Source: Candidatus Collierbacteria bacterium
Lineage (GTDB): Bacteria > Patescibacteriota > Microgenomatia > UBA1400 > JACPES01
Length of the DNA stretch: 64,000 nt
Reading direction: 5' to 3'
NCBI GenBank assembly: GCA_016183365.1
Contig: JACPES010000003.1
Span: forward strand, 105,467 to 169,466
The notes under the pieces are model-generated. The model saw only the letters and a list, made by a program, of their open reading frames with translations, was not told the origin of the DNA and made no database searches. Below, one piece after another: positions 15,521 to 56,159 of this stretch (position 1 is its first letter; each line of letters starts with the position of its first letter). A program made the position numbers and the translations under genes.

Positions 15521-16246
15521 ATGAGAAATTATTTAACAATTGTTTTTATTGTGGGGATACTGGTTTTGGTGGTGGTCTTTGGCTATCGAAAAATATCTAG
15601 GCAGATAAATCAAGTGCCAAAACCTCAACTGGTGGAGGCGGCTGTTTTTTCCAAATTGGCAAAAGACGAAAACAATTTTCTTTTAGACGTCCATATTCCG
15701 GAGCAGACTCATATTCCGGGAACTAAAAAATTTATTCCATTCGATAAAATCTCTGAAAACTCTGACCAGCTTCCCGATGATAAAAATACTCCGATATTGG
15801 TCTATTGCCGGTCGGGGAATATGAGTAAAATCGCCGCGCAAAAAATTTCCCAACTTGGGTATACAAAAGTTTATGATCTGAAAGGCGGAATTGACGGATA
15901 TAAAGAATCCAATGTTGAGGTAAAAATTTATCCGTCAAGTCAGGATTTAGGCGAAGTAATTTACGGTGATGTGGCAACGACCACTTTTACTTTGACTAAT
16001 TTTTCGCAGGCGTCGTTAAAAATTACCGGAATCTCAACTTCCTGCGGTTGCACCAAAGCCGGAATGGAAAAGAAGGAATTAAAAGCTTACGAGACGGCTG
16101 AAATCAAGGTGTCTTTCGATCCGGCGGTGCATAAAGACGATACTGATTTGGGAGATCTTATCAGAACTATTTATATAGAAACCGACAATCCGAATTTTCC
16201 GCGGCTGACGAGTAACATTACCGCCAAAGTGATTAAGGGGAACTAA
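15521..16246 (+). CDS. Rhodanese-domain protein with a C-terminal DUF1573 domain
   Basis: N-terminal TM helix, rhodanese active-site loop VYCRSGNMS, C-terminal DUF1573-like region with a CGC motif. Confidence 0.6.
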   Translation: MRNYLTIVFIVGILVLVVVFGYRKISRQINQVPKPQLVEAAVFSKLAKDENNFLLDVHIPEQTHIPGTKKFIPFDKISENSDQLPDDKNTPILVYCRSGNMSKIAAQKISQLGYTKVYDLKGGIDGYKESNVEVKIYPSSQDLGEVIYGDVATTTFTLTNFSQASLKITGISTSCGCTKAGMEKKELKAYETAEIKVSFDPAVHKDDTDLGDLIRTIYIETDNPNFPRLTSNITAKVIKGN

Positions 16247-16776
16247 CCTTCCGGTTCGGGGGGTAGAAATTCTTCTCCGCCGGAATCGCTTTTGGAAGCA
16301 TAATCGCCGGGTTTAAGCCATTGGATATAAGTGCAGCCGGTGGCTTCGCGTTTGGCGCTGTCCCAACCGCTGGTGGAGCATTTCTTCATTTTCTTACCCT
16401 TGGCGGTGGTGTAAAACACCAATTTTTTGCCGCATTGCGGGCAGTCTTCGTTAGACTCTTCAGTTTTTCCGCTTATCCATTCGATAAAATCGCAGCCTTC
16501 GGCTTTTCTGGTGTCTTTATTCCAAGTATTAGTTGAACACTTTTTCATCTTCTTGCCAAACCGGGTGACGGCCATAACCAGGGGCGAACCGCACTTGGGG
16601 CATTTTTCATCTAACTCTTGGGGTTGGGGAACCAGCCATTTAACATAATCGCAACCCTCATTTTTCCGGGTGTCTTTATTCCAGTTGCCCTTGGAGCAGC
16701 GCTGGAGTTGGCGGCCGGTCGAAGTTTCCGCAACCGCCGATAAGCTGGCCCCGCATTTAGGACATTTTTCTTCCAT
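16243..16776 (-). CDS. Protein of three tandem topoisomerase-type C4 zinc-ribbon domains (zf-C4_Topoisom-like)
   Basis: Three repeats of CP(K/Q)CG-x-L ... CS-x-W-x ... GC-x-(Y/F)-x-W. Confidence 0.6.
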   Translation of the reverse strand: MEEKCPKCGASLSAVAETSTGRQLQRCSKGNWNKDTRKNEGCDYVKWLVPQPQELDEKCPKCGSPLVMAVTRFGKKMKKCSTNTWNKDTRKAEGCDFIEWISGKTEESNEDCPQCGKKLVFYTTAKGKKMKKCSTSGWDSAKREATGCTYIQWLKPGDYASKSDSGGEEFLPPEPEG

Positions 16777-16886: not shown

Positions 16887-17762
16887 TTACAGGACTATAC
16901 TTGTTTCGTCGGGGCTGGAATTAAAACCGGGCTTAGCGACGATATAAACATCTTGCTTAAAATCATTGATCCCGACCTGCTCGCCTTTTCCGGCAATTAT
17001 AGCCAAATACGGCTGGCAAACCCGGCAGCCGCTTTCGCCCTGCGGGCATTTAAACCGGTTTAACTGCCGGGCCAGTTTTAGCTGTTTGGCGATTATTAAC
17101 AATTTTTCGTGGGATTCTTTTTTATCCGGCAATTTCATTTCATTCGGCGTTTTAGAGTGGCCCAGGTACCAATAGCTGGCTTTGGCGACGACCCGATCCT
17201 GGCAATTCTCGACTAACAGATAGTAAATCGAGAGCTGAAGGGAGTCAGCGTCTTGTTTCTGCTTGCCGGTTTTAAAGTCTATGATATGAATCTTATCCTC
17301 GTCTTTTAAGTATTCCAGCCAGTCTATTTTGCCACACAAAATAATATTGTCTTCTTCCGACAGCCAAAAATACGGCAGGCCGGCCTTTATTTTAACGGCC
17401 AAATTTTTTAAAGGCCCGGGATTTTCTTCAATCATTTTAAGCATCTTCAAACCCTGATCTTTGTAATGATTTTCCGTCGCAATATCTAAAAATCCGCCCT
17501 GTTTGCCGCTGACTTTTTTCCAAGTAGGTTCAAATTTTTTCCACAACGGCTGTCTGAACCTGTCCTCAACCGCCAAAACCGACAACGATTCAACCACTTC
17601 GTGAACCGCCTGTCCCAAAGCCAATGACGGATTTATTAAAGTAATTTTATGTCCAGTGGCTTTATCGCGGTAAACGTTGTGCAGATAGTAGGCTCGGGGA
17701 CATTTGAGGAAATCCGAAATTGACGAATGCGATACCCAAACTGCGGTAAATTTATCTTTCAT
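16887..17762 (-). CDS. PD-(D/E)XK nuclease family protein (Cas4/RecB-like, DUF83 type) with an Fe-S cysteine cluster
   Basis: N-terminal Cys (CPRAYYL), core IDFKTG, and a C-terminal CPQGESGCRVCQP cysteine triad as in Cas4-like exonucleases. No CRISPR array in the window. Confidence 0.6.
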   Translation of the reverse strand: MKDKFTAVWVSHSSISDFLKCPRAYYLHNVYRDKATGHKITLINPSLALGQAVHEVVESLSVLAVEDRFRQPLWKKFEPTWKKVSGKQGGFLDIATENHYKDQGLKMLKMIEENPGPLKNLAVKIKAGLPYFWLSEEDNIILCGKIDWLEYLKDEDKIHIIDFKTGKQKQDADSLQLSIYYLLVENCQDRVVAKASYWYLGHSKTPNEMKLPDKKESHEKLLIIAKQLKLARQLNRFKCPQGESGCRVCQPYLAIIAGKGEQVGINDFKQDVYIVAKPGFNSSPDETSIVL

Positions 17763-17837: not shown

Positions 17838-17960
17838 ATGAGGATTTTGGTAGTTGAAGATGAGCGCAAAATTGCCGATTCGATCAAGAAGGGATTAGAG
17901 CAGGAGCGCGCGGAGCGCCGCAAAAAGAAGACTCTCGCTGGGGCGGCGAAGTCGCCAATT
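17838..17960 (+). pseudogene. Truncated N-terminal fragment of an OmpR-type response regulator receiver domain
   Basis: 41-aa ORF MRILVVEDERKIADSIKKGLEQE... matches the receiver-domain N-terminus, then reads into non-homologous sequence. Its stop abuts the 3' end of the CBASS effector gene. Confidence 0.5.
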
Positions 17961-18559
17961 TAAAAACGCTTTCTTAATTCTGTGGTTTCGTATTCAAAAA
18001 ACATATCACCTTGATTCCCTATGCTGTTCCAATAAAAACCTTCAATTCGATTATCTGCTGGAAGATATCGTATTTTCCCACTACCCTTATGTTGTTGCAT
18101 TGTGCCGCATTTTAGTGTGTTAGGGTCATTGTCATATGCATAGAACAAATATATTTCACTATTTAATTTTGTGAATGCACAAACCACACTTTCTGATTTA
18201 GATTTTTCGTAGTACCCCCTTACCAACACGGAAGAAAAAGTTTGTTCTATCTCAAGACAACCTTTTACCTCAACGTTTTTACCATTTTCTTGATAAGAAG
18301 ATCGCTGTTTTCCTTTCCACCGTCTGTTCAAATTGGGAATTGAAACTATCCCAAATGCTGTAAAAATGGGGCACCGCCATAAATATCGATCAAAGAGCAA
18401 GTATATTAATCCGTAACCGTAGATCGGAGACAAAGTGTCCACCCAGTATGGCAAGCTTGGTAAGATTTTACTGAACAGCCATGCTATAAGCAGGCTCAGC
18501 AATGGCATGACGCCTGCAAATAAAATAATGTGGCTTGTCTTTTTAAAATCCACTCCCAT
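17960..18559 (-). CDS. CBASS effector, two N-terminal TM helices plus a beta-rich C-terminal domain (Cap15-like)
   Basis: 199 aa. Two hydrophobic helices at residues about 10-70, C-terminal domain with no catalytic motifs. Sits directly downstream of a CD-NTase gene in the same orientation. Confidence 0.55.
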   Translation of the reverse strand: MGVDFKKTSHIILFAGVMPLLSLLIAWLFSKILPSLPYWVDTLSPIYGYGLIYLLFDRYLWRCPIFTAFGIVSIPNLNRRWKGKQRSSYQENGKNVEVKGCLEIEQTFSSVLVRGYYEKSKSESVVCAFTKLNSEIYLFYAYDNDPNTLKCGTMQQHKGSGKIRYLPADNRIEGFYWNSIGNQGDMFFEYETTELRKRF

Positions 18560-18574
18560 ATACTATTAGTTGTT

Positions 18575-19477
18575 TCAGTTGTTAATGTAATACTGCTCTG
18601 CCAGTGTGAAAAAATTTGATGCATCAAGTTTATTCCATTGCCAGAGTTTATCTCCGAAAAGCTTGTGTTGATGGCTTACCGTCAATAATTGATCCGCATC
18701 GCATTTCCTTAATATAAAATCAAATACGTAGGTAAGCGAAGTTTGATGATCGCCGTTAAAATGACCATTCGGAGCATTATAAATGGCACATTCAATAAAA
18801 TATGAAGGTGCTGTTTTTTGGTCAAAGCATTCACCCTCAACTAACTTTCGGCGTATATTTTTGACCACTCTCACAATATCTTTATACATCTCATCAGTTC
18901 TGTGCTGGGCATTTTTGTCTTCGCCGTGCTGAATATGTACTCGCGGATAATTGATTATTTCCGTGTTTTCTCTAATGGTCCGGAATTTCATTCCCTCTAC
19001 ATAGTCTTTTTTGTTGGATAAATCAAAACTGTTGTAGTTTCGATGTTGGAGACAAGGTACAACGTCTGCATTTAGTAAATTTTGATCTCCAATCAATTTT
19101 ATGCTTTTATTTCCGCTTGTTTTAATTTTTGATGTCCCAAAATGTGAAATTAACGCATTGATAACATCTTGCCGAAAATCTGACCAGTGGTAGGCTGCAT
19201 TGGAATATGTTAAATCAAAAAGGCTTTTTTGAAACGCATTGACCCTGGTGGTGTTGGGTGAAAACGTTGAGTTCAGCTGGACAACGATGTCAACATCACT
19301 GTCTGACTTGGTGTTGGTGCTATTAGCGTAAGAACCCTGCAAGTACACTTCAAAATTTCGGAGTTTGAGAGCCTCACTTAGAGATAGAGCTTTTCTTATC
19401 TGCTCATTGGTATGTTGAATTTTTGCACTCGCAGGTGCGTTTGCCCACGTTTGTAATTGATCGTTGCTAATCGCCAT
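18575..19477 (-). CDS. cGAS/DncV-like nucleotidyltransferase (CD-NTase, SMODS domain, clade-E-like)
   Basis: Nucleotidyltransferase signature GSYANSTNTKSDSDVDIVV, a downstream catalytic Asp in NADVVPC, and a helical C-terminal domain. 300 aa. Confidence 0.7.
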   Translation of the reverse strand: MAISNDQLQTWANAPASAKIQHTNEQIRKALSLSEALKLRNFEVYLQGSYANSTNTKSDSDVDIVVQLNSTFSPNTTRVNAFQKSLFDLTYSNAAYHWSDFRQDVINALISHFGTSKIKTSGNKSIKLIGDQNLLNADVVPCLQHRNYNSFDLSNKKDYVEGMKFRTIRENTEIINYPRVHIQHGEDKNAQHRTDEMYKDIVRVVKNIRRKLVEGECFDQKTAPSYFIECAIYNAPNGHFNGDHQTSLTYVFDFILRKCDADQLLTVSHQHKLFGDKLWQWNKLDASNFFTLAEQYYINN

Positions 19478-19536
19478 ATTTTCCCTATTGACATGAGTAG
19501 TAAAAAAGTAATAAACTAATAATATAACAACTGCCT

Positions 19537-20139
19537 ATGAAAGTCAATGTTCAAATGACCATAACTCCGAAGCAGAAGCGGGTACTTGATTTTATTAAGA
19601 GCTTTGTCAAGGACAACGGTTATTCGCCGTCGCTTCATGAAATAGCGAAACATTTCCGAAAATCCGTCAGTACCGCCCAGCATTTCGTGGAAGAATTGGG
19701 AAACAGGGGATTTCTCCAAAAAACCGATAACATGGCGCGCGGAATTAGCACAACAATTCAGCAATCCGGTCGCATTTTTAAGCTTGGCATCATTGCCGCC
19801 GGAGAACCGATAGAACCGATTGAAAATCCCGAACCGATAGACGTGCCGTTATCCATGATCAGCAGAAAAGGCGATTATTATGCACTCGAAGTTAAAGGGA
19901 CAAGCATGGAGGACGATAATATCCTCGATGGTGATGTTATCGTAGTCCGGCATCAGAAAACTGCGCAGGACAGTGATCGCGTGGTTGCCATAACTGAAAA
20001 AGGCGCAACCCTGAAAGTTTATCGGCAAAAAAACGGAATGGCTTATCTTGAACCCCGAAATAAATCATTGGCGAATATCTATCCGAAAAAGCTTGAAATA
20101 AGAGGAAAGTTTTGTGGTTTAATAAGAAAGGGAGATTAA
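19537..20139 (+). CDS. lexA: LexA repressor (S24 peptidase)
   Basis: N-terminal wHTH (SPSLHEIAKHF), linker AAG, catalytic Ser in GTSM and Lys in RKGD-region. Transcribed divergently from the CD-NTase gene. True start may be the internal Met at about 19555. Confidence 0.8.
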   Translation: MKVNVQMTITPKQKRVLDFIKSFVKDNGYSPSLHEIAKHFRKSVSTAQHFVEELGNRGFLQKTDNMARGISTTIQQSGRIFKLGIIAAGEPIEPIENPEPIDVPLSMISRKGDYYALEVKGTSMEDDNILDGDVIVVRHQKTAQDSDRVVAITEKGATLKVYRQKNGMAYLEPRNKSLANIYPKKLEIRGKFCGLIRKGD

Positions 20140-20166: not shown

Positions 20167-20568
20167 ATGACAGATGTTTTTTCAAAGAAAAAGCGAAGCA
20201 GCATAATGTCCCTGATCGCCGGGAAAAACACGAAACCGGAGGTTATGGTCAGAAAAATTTTGTTTTCTTTGGGATATCGCTATCGATTGCATGTCTCTAA
20301 ATTACCGGGAAAGCCTGATATAGTTCTCGGTAAACAAAAAACGGCAATCTTCATAAACGGTTGTTTTTGGCATAAACATAATTGCGGTAAAAATGTAAAA
20401 CCAAGTACGAACATCAAGTTCTGGAAAAATAAACTGGATGAAAACGTAGAAAGACAAAAACAAAATATAAAAGAACTCAAAAATCTTGGTTGGAAACCAA
20501 TTATCATATGGGAATGCCAAACCAAGAAACAAAACCGACTGATTAACTTGTTACATAAAAGATTATGA
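20167..20568 (+). CDS. vsr: Very short patch repair endonuclease
   Basis: FINGCFWHKHNC ... FW-NK ... IWECQ motifs. Confidence 0.8.
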   Translation: MTDVFSKKKRSSIMSLIAGKNTKPEVMVRKILFSLGYRYRLHVSKLPGKPDIVLGKQKTAIFINGCFWHKHNCGKNVKPSTNIKFWKNKLDENVERQKQNIKELKNLGWKPIIIWECQTKKQNRLINLLHKRL

Positions 20569-21680
20569 AAAACAATATAAATCCAACATTCATAGATTTA
20601 TTTGCCGGAGCCGGGGGTTTGTCTATCGGACTTGAGCAGGCGGGGTTTAAGTTGGTTGCCGCAACCGATTGGGATCATTGGAGTTGCGAAACGTTGTGTG
20701 CAAATCATAAAAATATCATTGTAGAAGAAGGAGATATTTCCCTAGTTGATCTCGATGTGTTTCAAAAGAAGCTTCCGGTATCTGATGTAGATATGATAGT
20801 AGGAGGGCCGCCGTGTCAAGGATTTAGTGCTTTAGGCAAAAGATTAGTGAATGATCCAAGGAATCAGCTGTGGCGACAATACATGCGTTTTGTTGAGCAC
20901 TTTCTTCCAAAAGTATTTTTAATGGAAAATGTTCCCGAATTACTGAAGAGTCAGGAGTTTGCAGAAGTTAAATCTACGGCGGAACGACTCGGTTATATTA
21001 TTGAAGCAAAAATATTGCATGCAGTTGATTACGGAGTGCCGCAAAAACGGAAACGAGCAATCATAATCGGAAGCAGAATAGGAGCGCCAAAACACCCGGA
21101 GCCAACGCATCATGGCTTTGGTCAAATGTCGATTGATTCAAACGGAAAGGATCCGTGGAGGACAGTGGGTGATGTTATTCGAGATCTTCCGTTGGAGCCG
21201 GATGGAGAGAATTGGCACGTGGGAAGAAACCCAACGGCTAAATCACTAGCTAGATATAAGACAGTGCCTCCGGGCGGGAACAGATTTAATCTGCCGATTG
21301 AGCTCATGCCGAATTGCTGGATAAAAAAGAAAACGGGATCGACGGACGTTTTTGGAAGGTTAGAATGGAGTAAGCCCTCGTTGACAATAAGGACGGAATT
21401 TTTTAAGCCGGAAAAAGGAAGATATTTGCACCCGCAAGCCCATCGGCCGATTACGGTTAGGGAGGCGGCTAGGCTTCAGACATTTCCGGACAATTATATA
21501 TTAGTCGGATCTCATATAAACGTCGCCAAACAGGTTGGTAATGCCGTTCCGTGTGAATTGGCGAGAAAAGTGGGATTAGAAATACGTAAATTATTTGAGG
21601 TTGTTCTTGATGAGATCAAGCAGAAGAGCGTTGACAGTGATGCCTCTTTTCCCCGCGACTTCAGTTATCTTCAAACGTAG
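20565..21680 (+). CDS. dcm: DNA (cytosine-5)-methyltransferase
   Basis: Motif I DLFAGAGGLS, motif IV GGPPCQGFS, ENV, and a C-terminal QVGNAV. 4-nt overlap with vsr. Confidence 0.85.
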   Translation: MKNNINPTFIDLFAGAGGLSIGLEQAGFKLVAATDWDHWSCETLCANHKNIIVEEGDISLVDLDVFQKKLPVSDVDMIVGGPPCQGFSALGKRLVNDPRNQLWRQYMRFVEHFLPKVFLMENVPELLKSQEFAEVKSTAERLGYIIEAKILHAVDYGVPQKRKRAIIIGSRIGAPKHPEPTHHGFGQMSIDSNGKDPWRTVGDVIRDLPLEPDGENWHVGRNPTAKSLARYKTVPPGGNRFNLPIELMPNCWIKKKTGSTDVFGRLEWSKPSLTIRTEFFKPEKGRYLHPQAHRPITVREAARLQTFPDNYILVGSHINVAKQVGNAVPCELARKVGLEIRKLFEVVLDEIKQKSVDSDASFPRDFSYLQT

Positions 21681-22190
21681 GTCATCAGACAGGTTAAGGG
21701 TAATAATTTTATTTTTTGCCGTTTCGGGGTAAGCTAGGAGAGATTTTTTACCCGCATTGCATCTGCTGCAGAGTGTCCATAAGTTATTTTCTGTCGTTTT
21801 TCCTCCGAGTGTTAGCGGCTTTATGTGATCAATCTCCAATTTTACCCGTATCCCATCGGAAGATTTATCCTTATTTGTGTTCCCGCAAGTCTGACAGGTG
21901 TAATTATCCCGTTCAAGAATTTTAGACCGTAGCTTCAGGTTAATATATTTGTCCGCCGACTTTGTAGATTTTTTTACTGATTTAAGAATGTAACCTCTGT
22001 CACTATTTACGTATTTAATTTTCCAGCCCTCCGCGCGCAACTCTCGAATTCTTCGCGCGTAATTGTGTTGGCCGGAAACTTGTATCAATTCCTCGTTGGT
22101 AACGATTTTACCAAGCTTGGCATACAACGCATCGAGCAACTTTTGCCAGACTCCGTTTTTTGAGCTGGTTGGTTTATCGATTGCTTTCAT
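21591..22190 (-). CDS. HNH-family restriction endonuclease (N-terminal winged helix, C-terminal RHH-like tail)
   Basis: HNH core CQTCG ... DHIKP ... NLWTLCSRCN. The 3' end overlaps dcm convergently by 90 bp. Confidence 0.65.
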   Translation of the reverse strand: MKAIDKPTSSKNGVWQKLLDALYAKLGKIVTNEELIQVSGQHNYARRIRELRAEGWKIKYVNSDRGYILKSVKKSTKSADKYINLKLRSKILERDNYTCQTCGNTNKDKSSDGIRVKLEIDHIKPLTLGGKTTENNLWTLCSRCNAGKKSLLAYPETAKNKIITLNLSDDLRLKITEVAGKRGITVNALLLDLIKNNLK

Positions 22191-22402
22191 AAATTATCGA
22201 GTAAGTCAGAAATTCTTATTTTTAGCGCTTTGGCAATTTTTTCGATGTTCTCAAGTGTAATATTTTTTTCCGCACGTTCAATCATTCCTATATATGTTCT
22301 GTGCACTCCCACAATATCTGCAAACTGCTCTTGCGACAATTTTTGTTTAAGTCGCTCTTCGCGGACTTTTTGTCCAAATTTAATAAGGATATCTTTTTTC
22401 AT
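22187..22402 (-). CDS. XRE-family HTH controller (C) protein of the restriction-modification system
   Basis: 71 aa HTH_3 (LSQEQFADIVGVHRTYIGMIERAEKNITLENIEKIAKAL). 4-nt overlap with the downstream HNH gene. Confidence 0.7.
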   Translation of the reverse strand: MKKDILIKFGQKVREERLKQKLSQEQFADIVGVHRTYIGMIERAEKNITLENIEKIAKALKIRISDLLDNL

Positions 22403-37512: not shown

Positions 37513-37689
37513 GAGGCGCGTGAGGGAATCGAACCCTTGTATAGCGGTTTTGTCCTGCAGAGCAGGATCTAGCTTCGCTAGACAGACAGTTCCCTTCTTT
37601 GAGGCCTGGAAGGGAATCGAACCCTTGTATAGCGGTTTTGTCCTGCAGAGCAGGATCTAGCTTCGCTAGACAGACAGTTCCCTTCTTTG
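37513..37689 (-). repeat. Two tandem 88-bp direct repeats, each a double-hairpin element plus a copy of the tRNA-Cys 3' half (pseudo-tRNA units)
   Basis: 37513-37600 and 37601-37688 are near-identical. Each ends with CAAGGGTTCGATTCCCTTCCAGGCC, identical to the T-arm and acceptor 3' strand of the adjacent tRNA-Cys, but has no D-arm or 5' acceptor strand. Confidence 0.6.
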
Positions 37690-37761
37690 AGGCCTGGAAG
37701 GGAATCGAACCCTTGTATAGCGGTTTTGCAGACCGCCGCGTTACCACTTCGCCACCAGGCC
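37690..37761 (-). tRNA. tRNA-Cys (anticodon GCA)
   Basis: Minus-strand read GGCCTGG..GGCG..GCGGT-CTGCAAA-ACCGC..AAGGG-TTCGATT-CCCTT-CCAGGCC-T folds as a cloverleaf. Anticodon loop CTGCAAA carries GCA. No encoded CCA. Confidence 0.7.
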
Positions 37762-52943: not shown

Positions 52944-54497
52944 ATGCGGGTTAGCGACTTAGATTTAGTAAAAGAAAGTTTATCTACCGGATTGCCGTCA
53001 GTTTTGACCGAGGGCGACGCGTCTTATATTGACATTCGGGTTGAAGCCAGTGAGGGAGTTGGGGCGTATTCCGAGAATGGGAATTCTAAAATTACCAGTC
53101 AGGATTGGTCGTTTGCGCTGGGAGTGAGGGCTATCGATAAAGAAGGTTTCTCGGCGGCCGGATTTTATGGTCGTCAGTTGGGCGGAAATGATCTGAAAAA
53201 TTTTACGAAAACTGCGCGGGAAATGATCAGGGTCGCCAAAGTTCGGGCTCGGGCAAATTCTTTAGCCAAGTCAGGGTTTAAAAAGCGCTATGGTAAATTC
53301 GCGGAATCTATAATGCCGACTTTTTTGACTCCGGTTAAAGCTGTTATTGACACCGTTCCGGCCGTCTACGAAAAAGATCCGCGGAAAGTAACTTCCAAAG
53401 AAATGACAGAATTGGCCAAGAGCGTTTCATCTGCGGCTTTGTCTTTTAATGGTTGCATCAAAAGGTCCGATGTGGTGGTTAATACCGGGATAACCAGACA
53501 AATATTTTTTTCTTCCGAAGGGGCCTTGATTGATCAATCCTGGTGCAGCAGCGGAGTAACCATATTCGTTTTAGCTCAAAACGATTCCGGCGACAAACCG
53601 GTTGATCTTTATCACCATACTGGGAATCAATTAGGGCTGGAGGCTTTGATAGATGGCCGGAATTCCCATAACAAAACTGCTGAAGAGTTTGCCAAGCAAA
53701 TTGCCAAAGAAGCGGTGATATTGGCCGACGCCAAACCGGCCCCGGAAATTAACCGTCCGGTAACTGTGGTTTTGGATCCGGACCTGATCGCTCTTTTTGC
53801 TCACGAGATTATCGGTCACCCGTCTGAATTAGACCGGGCCTTAAAAATGGAAACCGGCTACGCCGGCAGATCATGGTTATTCGGGGATATGGAAAATAAT
53901 ATGGCGGGTAAACAAGTCGGATCCTCTATTTTGACCGCGTTTTCCGATCCGACTTTGACAGGGGGATACGGAGTTTATAAATATGACGACGAAGGGACAA
54001 AGGCTAAAAGGGTTTATCATATAAAAAATGGGATATATCACGATTTTATGAATAGTCGGCAAACAGCTTCGATTGTCGGCGCCGCGCCCAACGGCCATTA
54101 CAAGGCTAATAACGCTTCCGCCGTCCCCTTGATTAGAATGTCGGTTTCGGCCATTGCCGGCGGTTCTACTCCGCCTGCAAAAATCATTTCCGAAGTGAAA
54201 AACGGATATTATTGTGTCGGCCACCGGATACCGTCAATTTCGGAAGCGCGGGAAAATTTTCAAATCGCTCCCAGGCTGATTTACGAAATAAAAAATGGCC
54301 GGATCGGCCAAGCTTACCGTGACGGAAGAGTCACGGCGGATTCAAAGGATTTTTTTATGTCAATTGATGCTCTGGGAAATGATTTTACCGTCTTTTCGAT
54401 TCCGAATTGCGGCAAAGGCCAGCCAATGCAAGCCAAACAGGTGGGTAACGGCGGTCCGACGGCACGGGGAAGGGCGAAGATTGCCAGAGGGGAATAA
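52944..54497 (+). CDS. tldD: TldD/PmbA family metalloprotease (peptidase U62)
   Basis: HEIIGHPSELDR (HExxxH). Confidence 0.75.
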   Translation: MRVSDLDLVKESLSTGLPSVLTEGDASYIDIRVEASEGVGAYSENGNSKITSQDWSFALGVRAIDKEGFSAAGFYGRQLGGNDLKNFTKTAREMIRVAKVRARANSLAKSGFKKRYGKFAESIMPTFLTPVKAVIDTVPAVYEKDPRKVTSKEMTELAKSVSSAALSFNGCIKRSDVVVNTGITRQIFFSSEGALIDQSWCSSGVTIFVLAQNDSGDKPVDLYHHTGNQLGLEALIDGRNSHNKTAEEFAKQIAKEAVILADAKPAPEINRPVTVVLDPDLIALFAHEIIGHPSELDRALKMETGYAGRSWLFGDMENNMAGKQVGSSILTAFSDPTLTGGYGVYKYDDEGTKAKRVYHIKNGIYHDFMNSRQTASIVGAAPNGHYKANNASAVPLIRMSVSAIAGGSTPPAKIISEVKNGYYCVGHRIPSISEARENFQIAPRLIYEIKNGRIGQAYRDGRVTADSKDFFMSIDALGNDFTVFSIPNCGKGQPMQAKQVGNGGPTARGRAKIARGE

Positions 54498-54605
54498 ATT
54501 AAAGCGCAAAGTGCAAATATCAAAGCGCAAAGTTAAGCTAAAAGTTAAAAACTTTAAGCTTTGAATTTGGTTTTGATCTTTGAGTTTTGATCTTTTAGTT
54601 TATAT

Positions 54606-56159
54606 ATGATAGAACTATCTAAACTAAAACAAATAACTAAGAATGGGTTAAATTACGTCAAGTCTGAACCAGGGATTATCGAGGCTCTCGTCTACGCTTC
54701 GGTAAACCACCGGACGGTGGGGCGGATTGTTTACACCACTCATTTACCGTGCAATGGCCTGGAAGAGCCAAAATCGGAAGAGGATTCGGGAATCGCCGTC
54801 GAGATTTGGTTTAAAAAAGGAAATAAAAAACTAATCGGGTTTGGCCACGAGCCCAACGATATTTCCTTGGCAGGGGTAAAAAAAGCTTTGGAGAAAGCCA
54901 AAAGGGACGCGGTGGAAGATCTGGATTTTGGCGGATTTTTAAAACCAGATAAAGATGTTTCCAAAATAAAAGAAACTTTTAACAGTAATAAACTGATGGA
55001 TGTTGATTTCAAAAAAGAGGCTGAATTATTGGCCAAATTGAGTTGGGAAGTTATCGAGGGTTCAATTGACGGATTGGAGCAATACGCCAAGAAGAAAGAT
55101 TTGTCTCCCAAAGAACTGGCTTTTATTTTAAACGGCGACAATTTCATTATCCGCGAGCGGATGGCCTTGGCTTCCACTAATGGAATCGAAGATTCTGACG
55201 AATCGACCGTATTTTTATCGTTTTTGACCGCGATGCTGGAAAAAGAAAATGCTAAAGGCTCAGCTTGGGGAAGTGAATCGGCGATTGATGAAGGATTCTC
55301 GACTTACGCAATTGGCAAGAAAGCGGCTTTGGCGGCGGTCAACGCGGTCGGGGGCAAAAGAATCGAGGGCAAAAAATATAGAGTGGTATTCGGGCCGCAG
55401 GCGGTGACGGAATTATTCGGAAATTTGCTTTTGCCAAACCTGAATTTAGGGATGATGGATTTCGGGGCCTCCATATTTACCGCTAAATACGGCCAAGAAG
55501 TGACTTCCCCGCTTTTAACTTTATATGATGACGCGACGCTTTTAGGCGGCGCCGGTAGCAAACGGATCACCTGCGAGGGTTGTTCGACCGGCAAAACGTT
55601 ATTGATTGAAAAGGGGAAACTTGTTGGGTTTTTATCAGATTTCAGAACTACCAGTAAAATGCTAAGAAAATCTAAAGAGTCGACTGCTAAACTAGGTGTT
55701 GATCCCCATGAGATCCGTCACGCCATCAGTCCCAGGAACGGATTTCGGTTTTCCGAAGGCGGCGGCCGGGTGGCGGCGGCATCGGTCGGAATCCACGCCA
55801 CCAATCTGGTGATTGAATCTCATCAGCCGATGACCGAAGGGGAAATTTTAAATAAAGTCGGGGACGGAATTTATATTGGCCGTTTGTGGTACACCTATCC
55901 GGTCGGGGGAATTTCTTCCGGGATTATTTCCGGGACCGCGATTGCCGATAATTACATTATCCGCAGAGGCAAATTGGCCGAGCCGATTTTGCCAAATACT
56001 TTAAGGATAGAAGATAATATCGGCGAGATGATAAAAAGGATTATCGGCATCGGCAACAATCAAATTCCGACCATCCTCTGGGCCTCCGACGAAATCACCC
56101 ACGCCCCCTGGGTAGCGATGGACAAGATCAATTTTGTGGAGATAAATAAGGGAGAGTAA
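54606..56159 (+). CDS. pmbA: TldD/PmbA family protein (second subunit)
   Basis: Paralogue of the upstream gene lacking the HExxxH motif. Confidence 0.65.
   Translation: MIELSKLKQITKNGLNYVKSEPGIIEALVYASVNHRTVGRIVYTTHLPCNGLEEPKSEEDSGIAVEIWFKKGNKKLIGFGHEPNDISLAGVKKALEKAKRDAVEDLDFGGFLKPDKDVSKIKETFNSNKLMDVDFKKEAELLAKLSWEVIEGSIDGLEQYAKKKDLSPKELAFILNGDNFIIRERMALASTNGIEDSDESTVFLSFLTAMLEKENAKGSAWGSESAIDEGFSTYAIGKKAALAAVNAVGGKRIEGKKYRVVFGPQAVTELFGNLLLPNLNLGMMDFGASIFTAKYGQEVTSPLLTLYDDATLLGGAGSKRITCEGCSTGKTLLIEKGKLVGFLSDFRTTSKMLRKSKESTAKLGVDPHEIRHAISPRNGFRFSEGGGRVAAASVGIHATNLVIESHQPMTEGEILNKVGDGIYIGRLWYTYPVGGISSGIISGTAIADNYIIRRGKLAEPILPNTLRIEDNIGEMIKRIIGIGNNQIPTILWASDEITHAPWVAMDKINFVEINKGE

What the first reader, a model, noticed from the sequence alone, without database searches (positions are those of the whole stretch)
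17960..19477. Minimal type I CBASS operon: CD-NTase plus Cap15-like two-TM effector
The 300-aa protein has the GS-x(10)-DxD nucleotidyltransferase signature GSYANSTNTKSDSDVDIVV and a helical C-terminal half. That is typical of cGAS/DncV-like nucleotidyltransferases (SMODS). The co-oriented downstream gene encodes 199 aa with two N-terminal TM helices and a beta-rich C-terminus, the Cap15-type membrane-disrupting effector architecture. No Cap2/Cap3 or HORMA/TRIP13 genes are present, so this is a minimal type I CBASS. CBASS is rarely reported in reduced CPR-like genomes, and the clade and signal of this CD-NTase are unknown.
Basis: partly seen in the sequence, partly recalled or inferred. Interest (0 to 1): 0.8.

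Follow-up and report, generated by a model that had tools for sequence, protein, structure and literature searches.

The report
Type I CBASS beside lexA
This is a genuine but ordinary two-gene CBASS anti-phage system (a clade-E signal-making enzyme plus a Cap15 membrane-disrupting effector) in a tiny-genome Collierbacteria bacterium; its one unusual feature is that it sits back-to-back with the DNA-damage repressor gene lexA, a pairing that recurs in related bacteria.

Summary
Two co-oriented minus-strand genes encode a 300-aa CD-NTase (18575-19477) and a 199-aa Cap15-type effector (17960-18559), 15 bp apart.

- **Cyclase:** it matches a CBASS cyclase profile end to end (E=2.6e-95). It is closest to RmCdnE (E=8e-55; model TM-score 0.89-0.91), so its clade is E, not unknown.
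- **Effector:** it matches the CBASS 2TM effector profile (E=2.3e-52) and the Cap15 receptor domain. Its model has a helical hairpin plus an 8-strand barrel like YaCap15.
- **Type I:** no Cap2/Cap3/HORMA/TRIP13 genes lie nearby.
- **Signal:** the uracil-selecting lid Asn (N176) is invariant, so a uridine-containing cyclic dinucleotide is predicted.
- **Host:** a Candidatus Collierbacteria MAG (CPR). The family is common in CPR genomes (at least 23 of the 80 best species-level loci), so it is under-discussed rather than rare.
- **New lead:** lexA lies divergently, 59 bp away, with overlapping promoter-like sites. A LexA-like gene is within 1 kb upstream in 17 of 124 related loci, sometimes fused to DNA methyltransferases. 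LexA control of this CBASS is plausible but unproven; an integration hot spot beside lexA is the main rival.

Overall this is a new member of a known kind, of moderate interest.

The parts
18575..19477 (-). cdnE: 300-aa clade-E cGAS/DncV-like nucleotidyltransferase (catalytic G48-S49, D61, D63, D138; lid-1 N176; lid-3 position W279-Q280-W281)
   Evidence: PADLOC Cyclase PDLC00788 E=2.6e-95, full length. PDB 6E0K RmCdnE E=8.2e-55. AF2 pLDDT 93.5. Foldseek 6E0L TM 0.89/0.91. Invariant residues in A1.
17960..18559 (-). cap15: 199-aa effector with an N-terminal helical hairpin (8-32, 45-68) and a C-terminal 8-strand beta-barrel cyclic-dinucleotide receptor (79-192)
   Evidence: PADLOC Effector 2TM PDLC00703 E=2.3e-52. 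Pfam Cap15_CD_rec 68.5 bits (cut-off 31.2) and Cap15_TM 20.5 bits (below 28.2). PDB 7N34 E=5.5e-4. AF2 pLDDT 86. Foldseek 7N34 TM(target) 0.82. Hydropathy.
19478..19536 (.). 59-bp divergent intergenic region between cdnE and lexA
   Evidence: Read directly; compared with relatives.
19519..19547 (-). Promoter-like site oriented toward cdnE (TTGACT-17-TATTAT, 10/12); its -35 lies inside the first codons of lexA
   Evidence: Consensus scan. A prediction only.
19488..19517 (+). Promoter-like site oriented toward lexA (TTGACA-18-TAAACT, 10/12), overlapping the cdnE-directed one back-to-back
   Evidence: Consensus scan. The -35/-10 elements are conserved in L003, L171, L173, L174, L175, L176 and L177.
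19498..19515 (+). Candidate LexA operator: direct repeat TAGTAAA-N4-TAATAAA (11-bp period) in the lexA promoter spacer and over the predicted cdnE transcription start
   Evidence: Present in the lexA promoters of orthologs L171, L175 and L177, with both copies changing together in L175. Unique in the window even with 1 mismatch (expected 0.16). Almost confined to lexA promoters among the 177 loci. Defined post hoc, so inference only.
19537..20139 (+). lexA: 200-aa LexA repressor (winged-HTH + S24 peptidase; Ala88-Gly89 cleavage site, Ser123, Lys160), first gene of a co-oriented lexA-vsr-dcm string
   Evidence: Pfam LexA_DNA_bind 1.1e-13 and Peptidase_S24 6.7e-22. Alignment with E. coli LexA. 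100% identical to 'repressor LexA' MBI2309636.1.
20167..22402 (.). Adjacent type II restriction-modification module: vsr (20167-20568 +), dcm C5-methylase (20565-21680 +), HNH restriction endonuclease (21591-22190 -), C-protein (22187-22402 -). This is context, not part of the CBASS.
   Evidence: Pfam Vsr 1.5e-31, DNA_methylase 1.6e-73, HNH 3.3e-12. PADLOC REase_II 3.5e-12, Vsr, MTase_II and Control_protein 1.2e-25. The same block follows lexA in L177 and partly in L176.
17934..17950 (-). Weak terminator-like hairpin just after the cap15 stop codon
   Evidence: Consensus scan; no more frequent than in shuffles.
16887..17762 (-). Cas4-like PD-(D/E)XK nuclease, co-oriented 197 bp downstream of cap15. 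Judged not to be part of the system because relatives have different genes in that position.
   Evidence: Pfam PDDEXK_1 1.6e-23. PADLOC Cas4 4e-11. The downstream gene differs in L001, L003 and L174.

Best explanation
The locus is a functional-looking type I CBASS operon, cdnE-cap15, in a Candidatus Collierbacteria (CPR) genome. By homology, CdnE uses UTP plus a second NTP to make a uridine-containing cyclic dinucleotide after phage infection. The signal binds the C-terminal beta-barrel of Cap15, which oligomerises and uses its N-terminal helical hairpin to breach the cell membrane, killing the infected cell before phage release (abortive infection). The following is inferred, not shown. The operon is transcribed from a promoter that overlaps, back-to-back, the autoregulated promoter of the divergent lexA gene. 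LexA would then keep CBASS (and the lexA-vsr-dcm string) low until RecA-stimulated LexA self-cleavage during DNA damage or phage replication lifts repression. That would be a transcriptional priming layer analogous to CapW, CapH/CapP and CapK/CapS. Shown here: gene identity, fold, catalytic and specificity residues, operon conservation, absence of accessory genes, CPR origin, and the recurrent lexA adjacency. Inferred: nucleotide product, phage trigger, membrane killing, and LexA control. My confidence is about 0.95 for the CBASS identity and about 0.4 for the LexA control. The figure given covers the identity and core mechanism.
For: Identity: PADLOC cyclase E=2.6e-95 and 2TM effector E=2.3e-52, both full length. 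Pfam Cap15_CD_rec is above its cut-off. RmCdnE E=8e-55 and only CdnE structures are detectable by sequence. Models have pLDDT 93.5 and 86. Foldseek top hits are RmCdnE (TM 0.89/0.91) and YaCap15 (TM-target 0.82). Catalytic GS/DxD/D and lid Asn N176 are invariant; the role of the lid Asn and of lid 3 is taken from PMC10442399. Operon: Cap15 lies directly downstream in 136 of 159 loci. Type I: no accessory Cap genes. Cap15 mechanism: PMC10442399 states that Cap15 causes inner-membrane disruption on ligand binding and oligomerisation. LexA layer: the intergenic region is 59 bp with overlapping divergent promoter-like sites. LexA has the AG site, Ser and Lys. A LexA-like gene is within 1 kb upstream in 17 of 124 loci, with P<1e-7 even if collapsed to 7 groups, and in 8 of 23 CPR versus 1 of 57 other species. 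All three closest relatives with upstream sequence have it. CdnE is 62-72% identical where LexA is only about 41% identical, so the cassette moved yet stays beside a lexA. A candidate direct-repeat operator is shared by orthologous lexA promoters.
Against: There is no experimental data for this protein pair or for any CPR CBASS. Pfam SMODS (23.2 vs 26.5 bits) and Cap15_TM (20.5 vs 28.2) are below their cut-offs, and NCBIfam CBASS_cyclase_b is far below its cut-off. TM2 is weakly hydrophobic. The donor-pocket motif (W-Q-W) matches neither characterised class, so the second base of the signal cannot be predicted. For LexA control, the operator motif was defined post hoc from few related promoters, and no second copy exists in the 64-kb window. 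In CBASS-free orthologous loci the slot divergent from lexA holds other genes (L176, L177), so the adjacency may reflect an integration hot spot. LexA is linked to DNA methyltransferases at least as consistently as to CBASS. One E. coli transcriptome study found defence expression negatively correlated with recA.
Confidence: 0.9

Rival explanations
1. It is a real type I CBASS, but the lexA adjacency has no regulatory meaning. The region beside lexA is simply a hot spot where defence cassettes (R-M, CBASS, ATPase systems) integrate in Microgenomates and other CPR genomes, and cdnE-cap15 has its own constitutive promoter.
For: In CBASS-free lexA orthologs the divergent slot holds other cargo: an AAA_15/21 ATPase plus DUF2130 in L177, and DUF2130 plus DUF2188 plus DUF2779 in L176. 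L177 has a serine recombinase at the island edge. The window's LexA has over 120 orthologs at 64-90% identity, far more than the CdnE has, so it looks like the housekeeping gene. The candidate operator is not found elsewhere in the window.
Against: LexA-like genes accompany CdnE-Cap15 in at least two orientations and in several LexA clades, including a non-CPR WOR-3 genome. With only 59 bp between the start codons and an autoregulated lexA promoter, sharing of the operator is hard to avoid. LexA-methyltransferase fusions in three MTase families argue that LexA is functionally wired into these islands rather than being a passive landmark.
Confidence: 0.45
2. The pair works by inverse (Panoptes-like) logic. 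The cyclase constitutively makes a nucleotide that holds the 2TM-beta-barrel effector off, and phage sponges or nucleases that deplete the signal release the effector.
For: Panoptes effectors are 2TM-beta-barrel proteins related to Cap15 (titles and abstracts of PMC12657218 and PMC11974786, listed). The type I CBASS trigger is generally unknown.
Against: The cyclase here is a canonical CdnE with the CD-NTase fold, not a minimal CRISPR polymerase (mCpol). Its nearest characterised relatives (RmCdnE, LpCdnE, EfCdnE, ClCdnE) belong to classical CBASS with Cap15. The effector matches the CBASS 2TM profile end to end.
Confidence: 0.04
3. The NTase is not a signalling cyclase but another Pol-beta-family enzyme (for example a MNT/antitoxin-type or CCA-adding-like nucleotidyltransferase), and the neighbouring gene is an unrelated membrane protein.
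For: The best above-threshold Pfam hit is the generic NTP_transf_2; SMODS is sub-threshold. There are weak NCBIfam hits to cca_archaeal, ANT(9) and MntA, and public records call it just 'nucleotidyltransferase'.
Against: These hits cover only the roughly 40-residue catalytic core. The full-length matches are all to CD-NTases. Homologs carry the CD_NTase_C domain. The partner is a Cap15 receptor-domain protein conserved downstream in 136 of 159 loci.
Confidence: 0.01

Closest known systems
Rhodothermus marinus CdnE (RmCdnE, PDB 6E0K/6E0L), 3'3'-cUMP-AMP synthase of clade E
   Same: About 37% identity over the full length (E=8e-55). Same fold (TM 0.89-0.91, rmsd 2.0 A). Same catalytic GS/DxD/D residues. 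The same lid-1 Asn (N176 = RmCdnE N166) that hydrogen-bonds the acceptor uracil.
   Different: The lid-3 position is W279-Q-W281 instead of E265-Q-W267, and T266 replaces C252, so the donor pocket may be narrower. The product has not been determined. The host is a CPR bacterium.
Cyclic-di-pyrimidine CdnE + Cap15 type I CBASS operons (LpCdnE, EfCdnE, ClCdnE; PDB 7X4F/7X4C/7X4A)
   Same: Same two-gene architecture of CdnE followed by a Cap15 effector. Same lid-1 Asn. 26-28% identity, TM 0.84-0.88.
   Different: Those enzymes carry the (R/Q)xW motif that restricts the donor site to pyrimidines. Here the first position is Trp, conserved across the family (consensus WQW). No E-R/Q salt-bridge pair is evident.
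Yersinia aleksiciae Cap15 (PDB 7N34/7N35)
   Same: The C-terminal 8-strand beta-barrel receptor domain (TM-target 0.82, rmsd 2.7 A, 24% identity; Pfam Cap15_CD_rec 8e-19) is preceded by two N-terminal helices.
   Different: Low sequence identity. The second helix is weakly hydrophobic and kinked. The ligand is unknown.
DNA-damage-responsive CBASS regulators CapW (WYL), CapH+CapP (HTH + metallopeptidase) and CapK+CapS
   Same: A repressor gene encoded upstream of, and divergent from, the CBASS operon. The predicted logic is derepression on DNA damage through loss of the repressor; for CapH/CapP this is by proteolysis, which resembles LexA self-cleavage.
   Different: Here the candidate regulator is a canonical LexA (winged HTH + S24 serine peptidase). 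It is apparently the host's conserved LexA rather than a dedicated Cap protein, and it also heads an R-M methylase string. None of the three regulator papers searched (CapW PMC9122588, CapH/CapP preprint, CapK/CapS PMC13373217) describes a LexA or S24 regulator next to CBASS: the CapK/CapS paper has no occurrence of LexA, S24 or SOS, the CapH/CapP preprint has no LexA or S24, and in the CapW paper LexA appears only in a reference title. Regulation is not demonstrated.
Panoptes (mCpol + 2TM-beta-barrel effector)
   Same: A small nucleotide cyclase paired with a Cap15-like 2TM beta-barrel effector.
   Different: The cyclase family is different (CD-NTase here, not a Cas10-palm mCpol), so classical activating logic is expected rather than decoy logic.

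Membership tests
cGAS/DncV-like nucleotidyltransferase (CD-NTase) | Pol-beta NTase core with GS ... [DE]x[DE] ... [DE] catalytic residues | tested here: met
   G48-S49, D61-x-D63 and D138 are invariant in 33 homologs. The model superposes on RmCdnE at TM 0.89-0.91.
cGAS/DncV-like nucleotidyltransferase (CD-NTase) | C-terminal helical lid domain forming the caged active site (CD_NTase_C) | tested here: met
   Helices 178-299 in the model. Full-length alignment to 6E0K. PF26305 CD_NTase_C is precomputed on the gene in L085 and on all homologs.
cGAS/DncV-like nucleotidyltransferase (CD-NTase) | Curated family profile reached | tested here: inconclusive
   PADLOC cyclase profile E=2.6e-95 (no curated cut-off). 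Pfam SMODS 23.2 bits is below its 26.5 cut-off. NCBIfam NF053871 254 bits is below 350, and NF041117 CBASS_cyclase_b 37.9 is below 200.
cGAS/DncV-like nucleotidyltransferase (CD-NTase) | Synthesises a cyclic oligonucleotide | not testable with these tools
   Needs enzyme assay and LC-MS.
CD-NTase clade E (CdnE) | Groups with CdnE reference enzymes rather than with clades A-D, F-H | tested here: met
   The only PDB sequences detectable at E<=1 are five CdnE enzymes. Foldseek ranks the Cap15-type CdnE structures first (E 1e-28 to 1e-20), then STING-associated CdnE (about 1e-11), then CdnD/CdnC/CdnG/cGAS (1e-10 or weaker). No formal phylogeny with the full reference set was made.
CD-NTase clade E (CdnE) | Lid-1 Asn selecting a uracil acceptor | tested here: met
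   N176 aligns with RmCdnE N166 and is invariant. Its role is described in PMC10442399.
Cyclic-di-pyrimidine-synthesising CdnE subgroup | (R/Q)xW lid-3 motif restricting the donor site to pyrimidines | tested here: not met
   The aligned position is W279-Q280-W281: Trp instead of Arg/Gln at the first position. It is therefore not filed in this subgroup, and the product remains open.
Cap15 effector | C-terminal minimal beta-barrel cyclic-dinucleotide receptor domain | tested here: met
   Pfam Cap15_CD_rec 68.5 bits against a 31.2 cut-off. 7N34 E=5.5e-4 by sequence. Foldseek TM-target 0.82. Eight strands in the model.
Cap15 effector | Two N-terminal transmembrane helices | tested here: inconclusive
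   The model has helices 8-32 and 45-68. TM1 hydropathy is 2.5, but TM2 reaches only about 1.0 with three charged residues. Cap15_TM scores 20.5 bits, below its 28.2 cut-off.
Cap15 effector | Ligand-induced oligomerisation and membrane disruption | not testable with these tools
   Known for YaCap15 (as summarised in PMC10442399). Needs toxicity and membrane assays.
Type I CBASS | Cyclase and effector adjacent, co-oriented, and conserved as a pair | tested here: met
   15-bp gap. Cap15 lies directly downstream in 136 of 159 related loci.
Type I CBASS | No Cap2/Cap3 (E1-E2/JAB), HORMA/TRIP13 or other accessory genes | tested here: met
   Pfam or PADLOC scans of the flanking ORFs examined between 11464 and 24738 give LexA, R-M genes, a Cas4-like nuclease and unrelated proteins only.
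Type I CBASS | Confers phage resistance | not testable with these tools
   Needs heterologous phage challenge. No host cultivation system exists for Collierbacteria.
LexA repressor | LexA winged-HTH + S24 peptidase with Ala-Gly site, catalytic Ser and Lys | tested here: met
   Pfam LexA_DNA_bind 51 bits and Peptidase_S24 78 bits, both above their cut-offs. A88-G89, S123 and K160 align with E. coli A84-G85, S119 and K156.
LexA repressor | Binds an operator in its own promoter and in target promoters | tested here: inconclusive
   A candidate direct repeat TAGTAMA-N4-TARTAMA occurs in four orthologous lexA promoters and is unique in the window. It was defined post hoc, and there is no binding data.
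CapW / CapH-CapP CBASS regulators | WYL-WCX repressor, or XRE-HTH plus Zn-metallopeptidase pair, upstream of CBASS | tested here: not met
   The upstream gene is LexA. The only capH-like hit (22187-22402, E=3e-10) fits the R-M control-protein profile far better (E=1.2e-25) and sits beside the restriction gene.

The most novel reading that the evidence does not exclude
In CPR bacteria the SOS repressor LexA itself is the transcriptional gatekeeper of a defence island. It sits back-to-back with a CdnE-Cap15 CBASS operon and heads (or is physically fused to) DNA methyltransferases, so RecA-triggered LexA self-cleavage would simultaneously prime abortive-infection signalling and raise protective methylation. 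This would be a fourth, LexA-based class of DNA-damage-responsive CBASS control, alongside CapW, CapH/CapP and CapK/CapS. It would also imply a previously undescribed family of LexA-methyltransferase fusion proteins.
Probability: 0.35. Interest if true: 0.6.

Novelty: new member of a known kind. Interest (0 to 1): 0.38.

Why it matters
The CBASS pair is a textbook type I system (CdnE + Cap15) and current defence finders detect it. Its value is mostly descriptive. It shows that ultra-small, host-dependent CPR bacteria carry abortive-infection signalling systems, and that this CdnE-Cap15 family is common in CPR and also present in archaea, even though public records call the proteins 'nucleotidyltransferase' and 'hypothetical protein'.

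Two points could matter more. First, the family has a conserved W-Q-W donor-lid variant that fits neither characterised CdnE specificity class, so the second base of its product cannot be predicted from the known specificity rules. Second, the recurrent pairing with lexA, including LexA-methyltransferase fusions, gives a directly testable hypothesis that the canonical SOS repressor controls CBASS and R-M expression. That would extend the emerging theme that bacterial immune operons are primed by DNA damage.

Tried and rejected
1. A single-sequence scan of species genomes found nothing; the alignment-based scan was needed.
2. I first read the shared TAGTTTAT and ATGTCAA motifs of the window and L003 as operator candidates. 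They are simply the -10 (TAAACT) and -35 (TTGACA) of the lexA promoter.
3. A search for a Gram-positive-type GAAC-N4-GTTC box or any perfect palindrome in the window's 59-bp intergenic region found none. Other LexA clades show palindromes (L172 TACTTTCTC-N7-GAGAAAGTA; L003/L173/L174 GGTAAC(A/G)(A/G)TACC), but these do not transfer to the window.
4. The Cas4-like nuclease downstream of cap15 was considered as a third component. I rejected it because the downstream gene differs in relatives.
5. The 71-aa HTH protein hits PADLOC capH (3e-10). I rejected it as a CBASS regulator because it fits R-M control proteins much better and lies next to the restriction gene.
6. In L001 the HTH_31 plus 295-aa pair upstream of CBASS was considered as CapH/CapP-like. 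The 295-aa protein gives only a weak transglutaminase-core hit, so this was not pursued.
7. Phage carriage: only 2 distant relatives (37% identity) occur on 2.9 million viral contigs, so the cassette is not typically phage-borne.
8. Base composition gives no clear island boundary.
9. The origin of the NCBIfam name 'DS2_2_antiphage' (best NCBIfam hit, below cut-off) could not be traced in the literature.
10. Literature searches for LexA-regulated CBASS or LexA-methyltransferase fusions found nothing specific.
Full report
**1. Observation**

The two ORFs are real and lie on the minus strand. The first is 18575-19477 (300 aa) and the second, 15 bp downstream, is 17960-18559 (199 aa). In a 33-sequence family alignment, G48, S49, D61, D63, the third catalytic Asp D138 and N176 are invariant.

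**2. What the proteins are: the cyclase**

- It matches a PADLOC CBASS cyclase profile over its whole length (E=2.6e-95).
- Generic Pfam models see only the catalytic core. NTP_transf_2 is above its cut-off, while SMODS (23.2 bits) is below its 26.5 cut-off.
- NCBIfam's best model, NF053871 'anti-phage nucleotidyltransferase', scores 254 bits, below its equivalog cut-off of 350.
- Among solved structures, only five proteins are detectable by sequence, and all are clade-E CD-NTases. The best is Rhodothermus marinus CdnE (6E0K, E=8.2e-55, residues 2-291).
- An AlphaFold model built on the family alignment is confident (pLDDT 93.5, pTM 0.87). It superposes on RmCdnE with TM-score 0.89/0.91 and rmsd 2.0 A. 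Next come the Cap15-associated CdnE enzymes LpCdnE, EfCdnE and ClCdnE and then EmCdnE, and only then the STING-associated CdnE, CdnD, CdnC, CdnG and cGAS.
- The clade is therefore E, not unknown.

**3. What the proteins are: the effector**

- It matches the PADLOC CBASS '2TM' effector profile end to end (E=2.3e-52) and Pfam Cap15_CD_rec (68.5 bits against a 31.2 cut-off).
- It hits YaCap15 (7N34) directly by sequence (E=5.5e-4).
- Its model (pLDDT 86) has helix 8-32, a kinked helix 45-68 and eight strands at 79-192. The barrel matches YaCap15 with TM-target 0.82.
- Hydropathy clearly supports the first TM helix. The second is aromatic-rich, contains D57, R58 and R62, and stays below the usual threshold. 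Cap15_TM is sub-threshold.
- I therefore call the two-TM hairpin likely rather than proven.

**4. System type and conservation**

None of the flanking ORFs I scanned with Pfam or PADLOC, which lie between 11464 and 24738, resembles Cap2/Cap3, HORMA/TRIP13 or other accessory proteins. That makes this a type I CBASS.

The pairing is strongly conserved. Across 159 independent related loci from species-representative genomes and metagenomes, a Cap15 homolog lies immediately downstream of the cyclase in 136. The co-oriented Cas4-like PD-(D/E)XK nuclease 197 bp further downstream is not conserved in relatives, so I do not count it as part of the system.

**5. Likely signal**

PMC10442399 summarises two specificity rules for CdnE enzymes:

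- The lid-1 Asn (RmCdnE N166) hydrogen-bonds the acceptor uracil, and N166S switches the product from cUA to cAA.
- A C-terminal (R/Q)xW 'lid 3' restricts the donor site to pyrimidines in the cUU-makers. RmCdnE has E265 at that first position, which leaves room for adenine.

In the alignment, N176 of the window protein corresponds to N166 and is invariant in the family. The lid-3 position reads W279-Q280-W281 (family consensus WQW), and T266 replaces RmCdnE C252. I therefore predict a uridine-containing cyclic dinucleotide. The second base cannot be assigned, because the protein fails the defining motif of the di-pyrimidine subgroup and also differs from RmCdnE.

**6. Host and distribution**

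The effector, cyclase and LexA are 100% identical to MBI2309634.1 ('hypothetical protein'), MBI2309635.1 ('nucleotidyltransferase') and MBI2309636.1 ('repressor LexA'). All three come from a Candidatus Collierbacteria MAG with a 588,265-bp contig. The same locus appears in several groundwater read-set assemblies. The CPR origin is therefore right.

The family is not rare in CPR:

- 923 homologs have E<=1e-10, and several are labelled Microgenomates, Minisyncoccia, Patescibacteria or Saccharimonadales.
- 407 relatives occur in species-representative genomes.
- Of the best 80 loci, at least 23 carry CPR labels and about a dozen are archaeal.
- Only a handful of papers mention CBASS together with CPR or Patescibacteria. 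One aquifer 'defensome' survey reports high defence-system density in CPR without singling out CBASS.
- Only two distant relatives were found on viral contigs.

**7. Surroundings**

Immediately upstream and divergent, 59 bp from the cdnE start codon, is a canonical lexA (19537-20139). It has the LexA winged-HTH and S24 peptidase domains, plus the A88-G89 cleavage site, Ser123 and Lys160 aligned with E. coli LexA.

lexA heads a co-oriented string: lexA, vsr, then dcm. That string faces an HNH restriction endonuclease and an R-M control protein. The local order is therefore C-protein, REase, methylase, Vsr, LexA | CdnE, Cap15 | Cas4-like nuclease.

A consensus scan places two promoter-like sites back-to-back and overlapping in the intergenic region:

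- TTGACA-18-TAAACT, directed toward lexA.
- TTGACT-17-TATTAT, directed toward cdnE.

**8. Is the lexA adjacency meaningful? Evidence for**

- A LexA-like gene lies within 1 kb upstream of the cyclase in 17 of 124 loci that have enough upstream sequence. With a single-copy gene in a 700-3000-gene genome, this is P<1e-7 even if the 17 are collapsed to 7 independent groups.
- It is largely a CPR trait: 8 of 23 CPR-labelled species loci against 1 of 57 others (Fisher P=1.2e-4).
- All three closest relatives of the window's cyclase that have upstream sequence show the same divergent lexA, followed by DNA methyltransferases of different families (L172, L173, L174).
- In four further loci the LexA is fused in one reading frame to a DNA methyltransferase, and three different MTase families are involved (L038/L151, L072, L143).
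- A second architecture has a LexA-like gene (Cys-Gly cleavage site) co-oriented upstream. In L022 and L024 a short intervening reading frame that looks DUF2188-like by eye lies between it and cdnE; it was not confirmed by Pfam or by the phmmer census.
- The LexA and CdnE histories disagree. Where CdnE is 62-72% identical to the window's, LexA is only 40-42% identical. LexA orthologs at 66-78% identity occur in loci with no CBASS. The cassette has evidently moved between lineages while ending up next to a lexA each time.

**9. Is the lexA adjacency meaningful? Evidence against**

- The window's LexA has over 120 orthologs at 64-90% identity, many more than the cyclase has, so it looks like the lineage's conserved LexA.
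- In three such orthologous loci without CBASS, the lexA-vsr-dcm(-HNH-C) block is retained (L177, L176). The divergent slot instead contains an AAA_15/21 ATPase plus DUF2130, or DUF2130 plus DUF2188 plus DUF2779.
- That pattern is what a defence-integration hot spot beside lexA would look like.

**10. Candidate operator**

Aligning the lexA promoters of the orthologous LexA group on their -35 element shows a direct repeat with an 11-bp period in the spacer:

| Locus | Repeat |
|---|---|
| Window, L171 | TAGTAAA-N4-TAATAAA |
| L177 | TAGTAAA-N4-TAGTAAA |
| L175 | TAGTACA-N4-TAATACA (both copies changed together) |
| L176 | does not fit cleanly |

In the window the repeat is at 19498-19515. It overlaps the lexA -10 element and the predicted cdnE transcription start. 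It is the only match in 64 kb even with one mismatch (0.16 expected). Among the 177 fetched loci it occurs almost only at these lexA promoters.

The motif was derived from those same sequences, so this is a lead and not a test. Other LexA clades have different palindromes at the equivalent position.

**11. Mechanism**

- *Core, by homology, high confidence.* CdnE makes a U-containing cyclic dinucleotide on infection. Cap15 binds it through the beta-barrel, oligomerises and disrupts the membrane, which aborts the infection. The Cap15 mechanism is as summarised in PMC10442399.
- *Added layer, inferred, about 0.4.* LexA bound in the 59-bp region represses both divergent promoters. RecA-stimulated self-cleavage during DNA damage or phage replication then derepresses cdnE-cap15 together with lexA-vsr-dcm.
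- *Parallels.* This resembles the known DNA-damage-responsive CBASS regulators CapW, CapH/CapP and CapK/CapS. None of the three regulator papers I searched describes a LexA or S24 regulator next to CBASS; in the CapW paper LexA appears only in a reference title.
- *Caveat.* One E. coli transcriptome survey found defence expression negatively correlated with recA, a reminder that SOS coupling is not general.

**12. Verdict**

The finding is correct and well supported, but the system is a new member of a well-characterised kind: type I CBASS with CdnE and Cap15, detectable with existing defence-finder profiles. The clade is E and the signal probably contains uridine. CPR occurrence is common in the data though little discussed.

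This gives a testable hypothesis of LexA-gated CBASS. Interest is moderate (0.38). If the LexA coupling is real it would deserve about 0.6.

Noticed in passing
L038:3400-4923(-), L151:1400-2923(-), L072:1155-3431(-), L143:1026-2891(-): Single ORFs fuse a complete LexA (winged HTH + S24 peptidase) to a DNA methyltransferase. Three different MTase families are involved (N6_N4_Mtase, Eco57I-like N6_Mtase, another N6_N4). Each lies divergently upstream of a CdnE-Cap15 pair. I found no literature on such fusions.
   Followed up: partly
L003:5760-5999, L173:4755-4994, L176:3672-3911: A 79-aa DUF2188 gene recurs between lexA and cdnE in relatives, and also in the lexA-divergent slot of a CBASS-free locus. 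It is absent from the window. Function unknown.
   Followed up: partly
window 20167-22402: A complete type II R-M module sits next to lexA: vsr, dcm (C5-methylase), HNH restriction endonuclease and a C (control) protein. The dcm and HNH genes overlap convergently by 90 bp (21591-21680). The same lexA-vsr-dcm-HNH-HTH block occurs in another Microgenomates genome (L177).
   Followed up: partly
L018, L020, L022, L024, L050, L107, L108, L113, L146 (LexA-like gene co-oriented upstream of cdnE): This second class of LexA-like proteins has Cys-Gly instead of Ala-Gly at the predicted self-cleavage site (as in UmuD). Its members are only about 30% identical to the window's LexA.
   Followed up: partly
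window 18575-19477, residues W279-Q280-W281 and T266: The donor-pocket 'lid 3' of this CdnE family reads W-Q-W (conserved in the family consensus). This is neither the (R/Q)xW of cUU synthases nor the ExW of RmCdnE, so the donor-base specificity cannot be assigned from the known rules.
   Followed up: partly
L001/L009 (MAG DBS2-1.bin128), L001:4804-12718: Here CdnE-Cap15 sits beside type IV secretion genes (VirB4/TraC-like ATPase, TrbC, T4SS pilin) and a divergent XRE-HTH plus 295-aa transglutaminase-like pair. This suggests carriage on a conjugative element.
   Followed up: no
L011, L028, L034, L040, L045, L046, L057, L060, L074, L076, L083: Close relatives of this CdnE (35-46% identity), mostly with Cap15 downstream, occur in diverse archaea (Bathyarchaeia, Methanoperedens, Nitrosopumilus, Aenigmarchaeota, Thermoplasmatota and others).
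   Followed up: no
L079:4321-5876, L080:4323-5873: In two cyanobacterial loci the gene order is inverted, with Cap15 upstream of CdnE.
   Followed up: no
window 16243-16776 (-): A 177-aa protein made of three tandem Topo-I-type C4 zinc ribbons. Its 3' end overlaps the 3' end of the convergent rhodanese-domain gene (15521-16246) by 4 bp. Function unknown.
   Followed up: no
window 16887-17762 (-): A Cas4-like PD-(D/E)XK nuclease (291 aa) lies just downstream of cap15 with no CRISPR-Cas genes nearby. It is not conserved next to CBASS in relatives.
   Followed up: partly
L177:9169-9186 (-): One extra copy of the candidate operator pattern TAGTAMA-N4-TARTAMA lies within or near the serine-recombinase gene at the edge of the lexA/R-M island.
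   Followed up: no
window 52944-56159: Two tandem 517-aa TldD/PmbA-family metallopeptidase paralogs. The only RNA gene in the window is tRNA-Cys at 37689-37761 (-).
   Followed up: no
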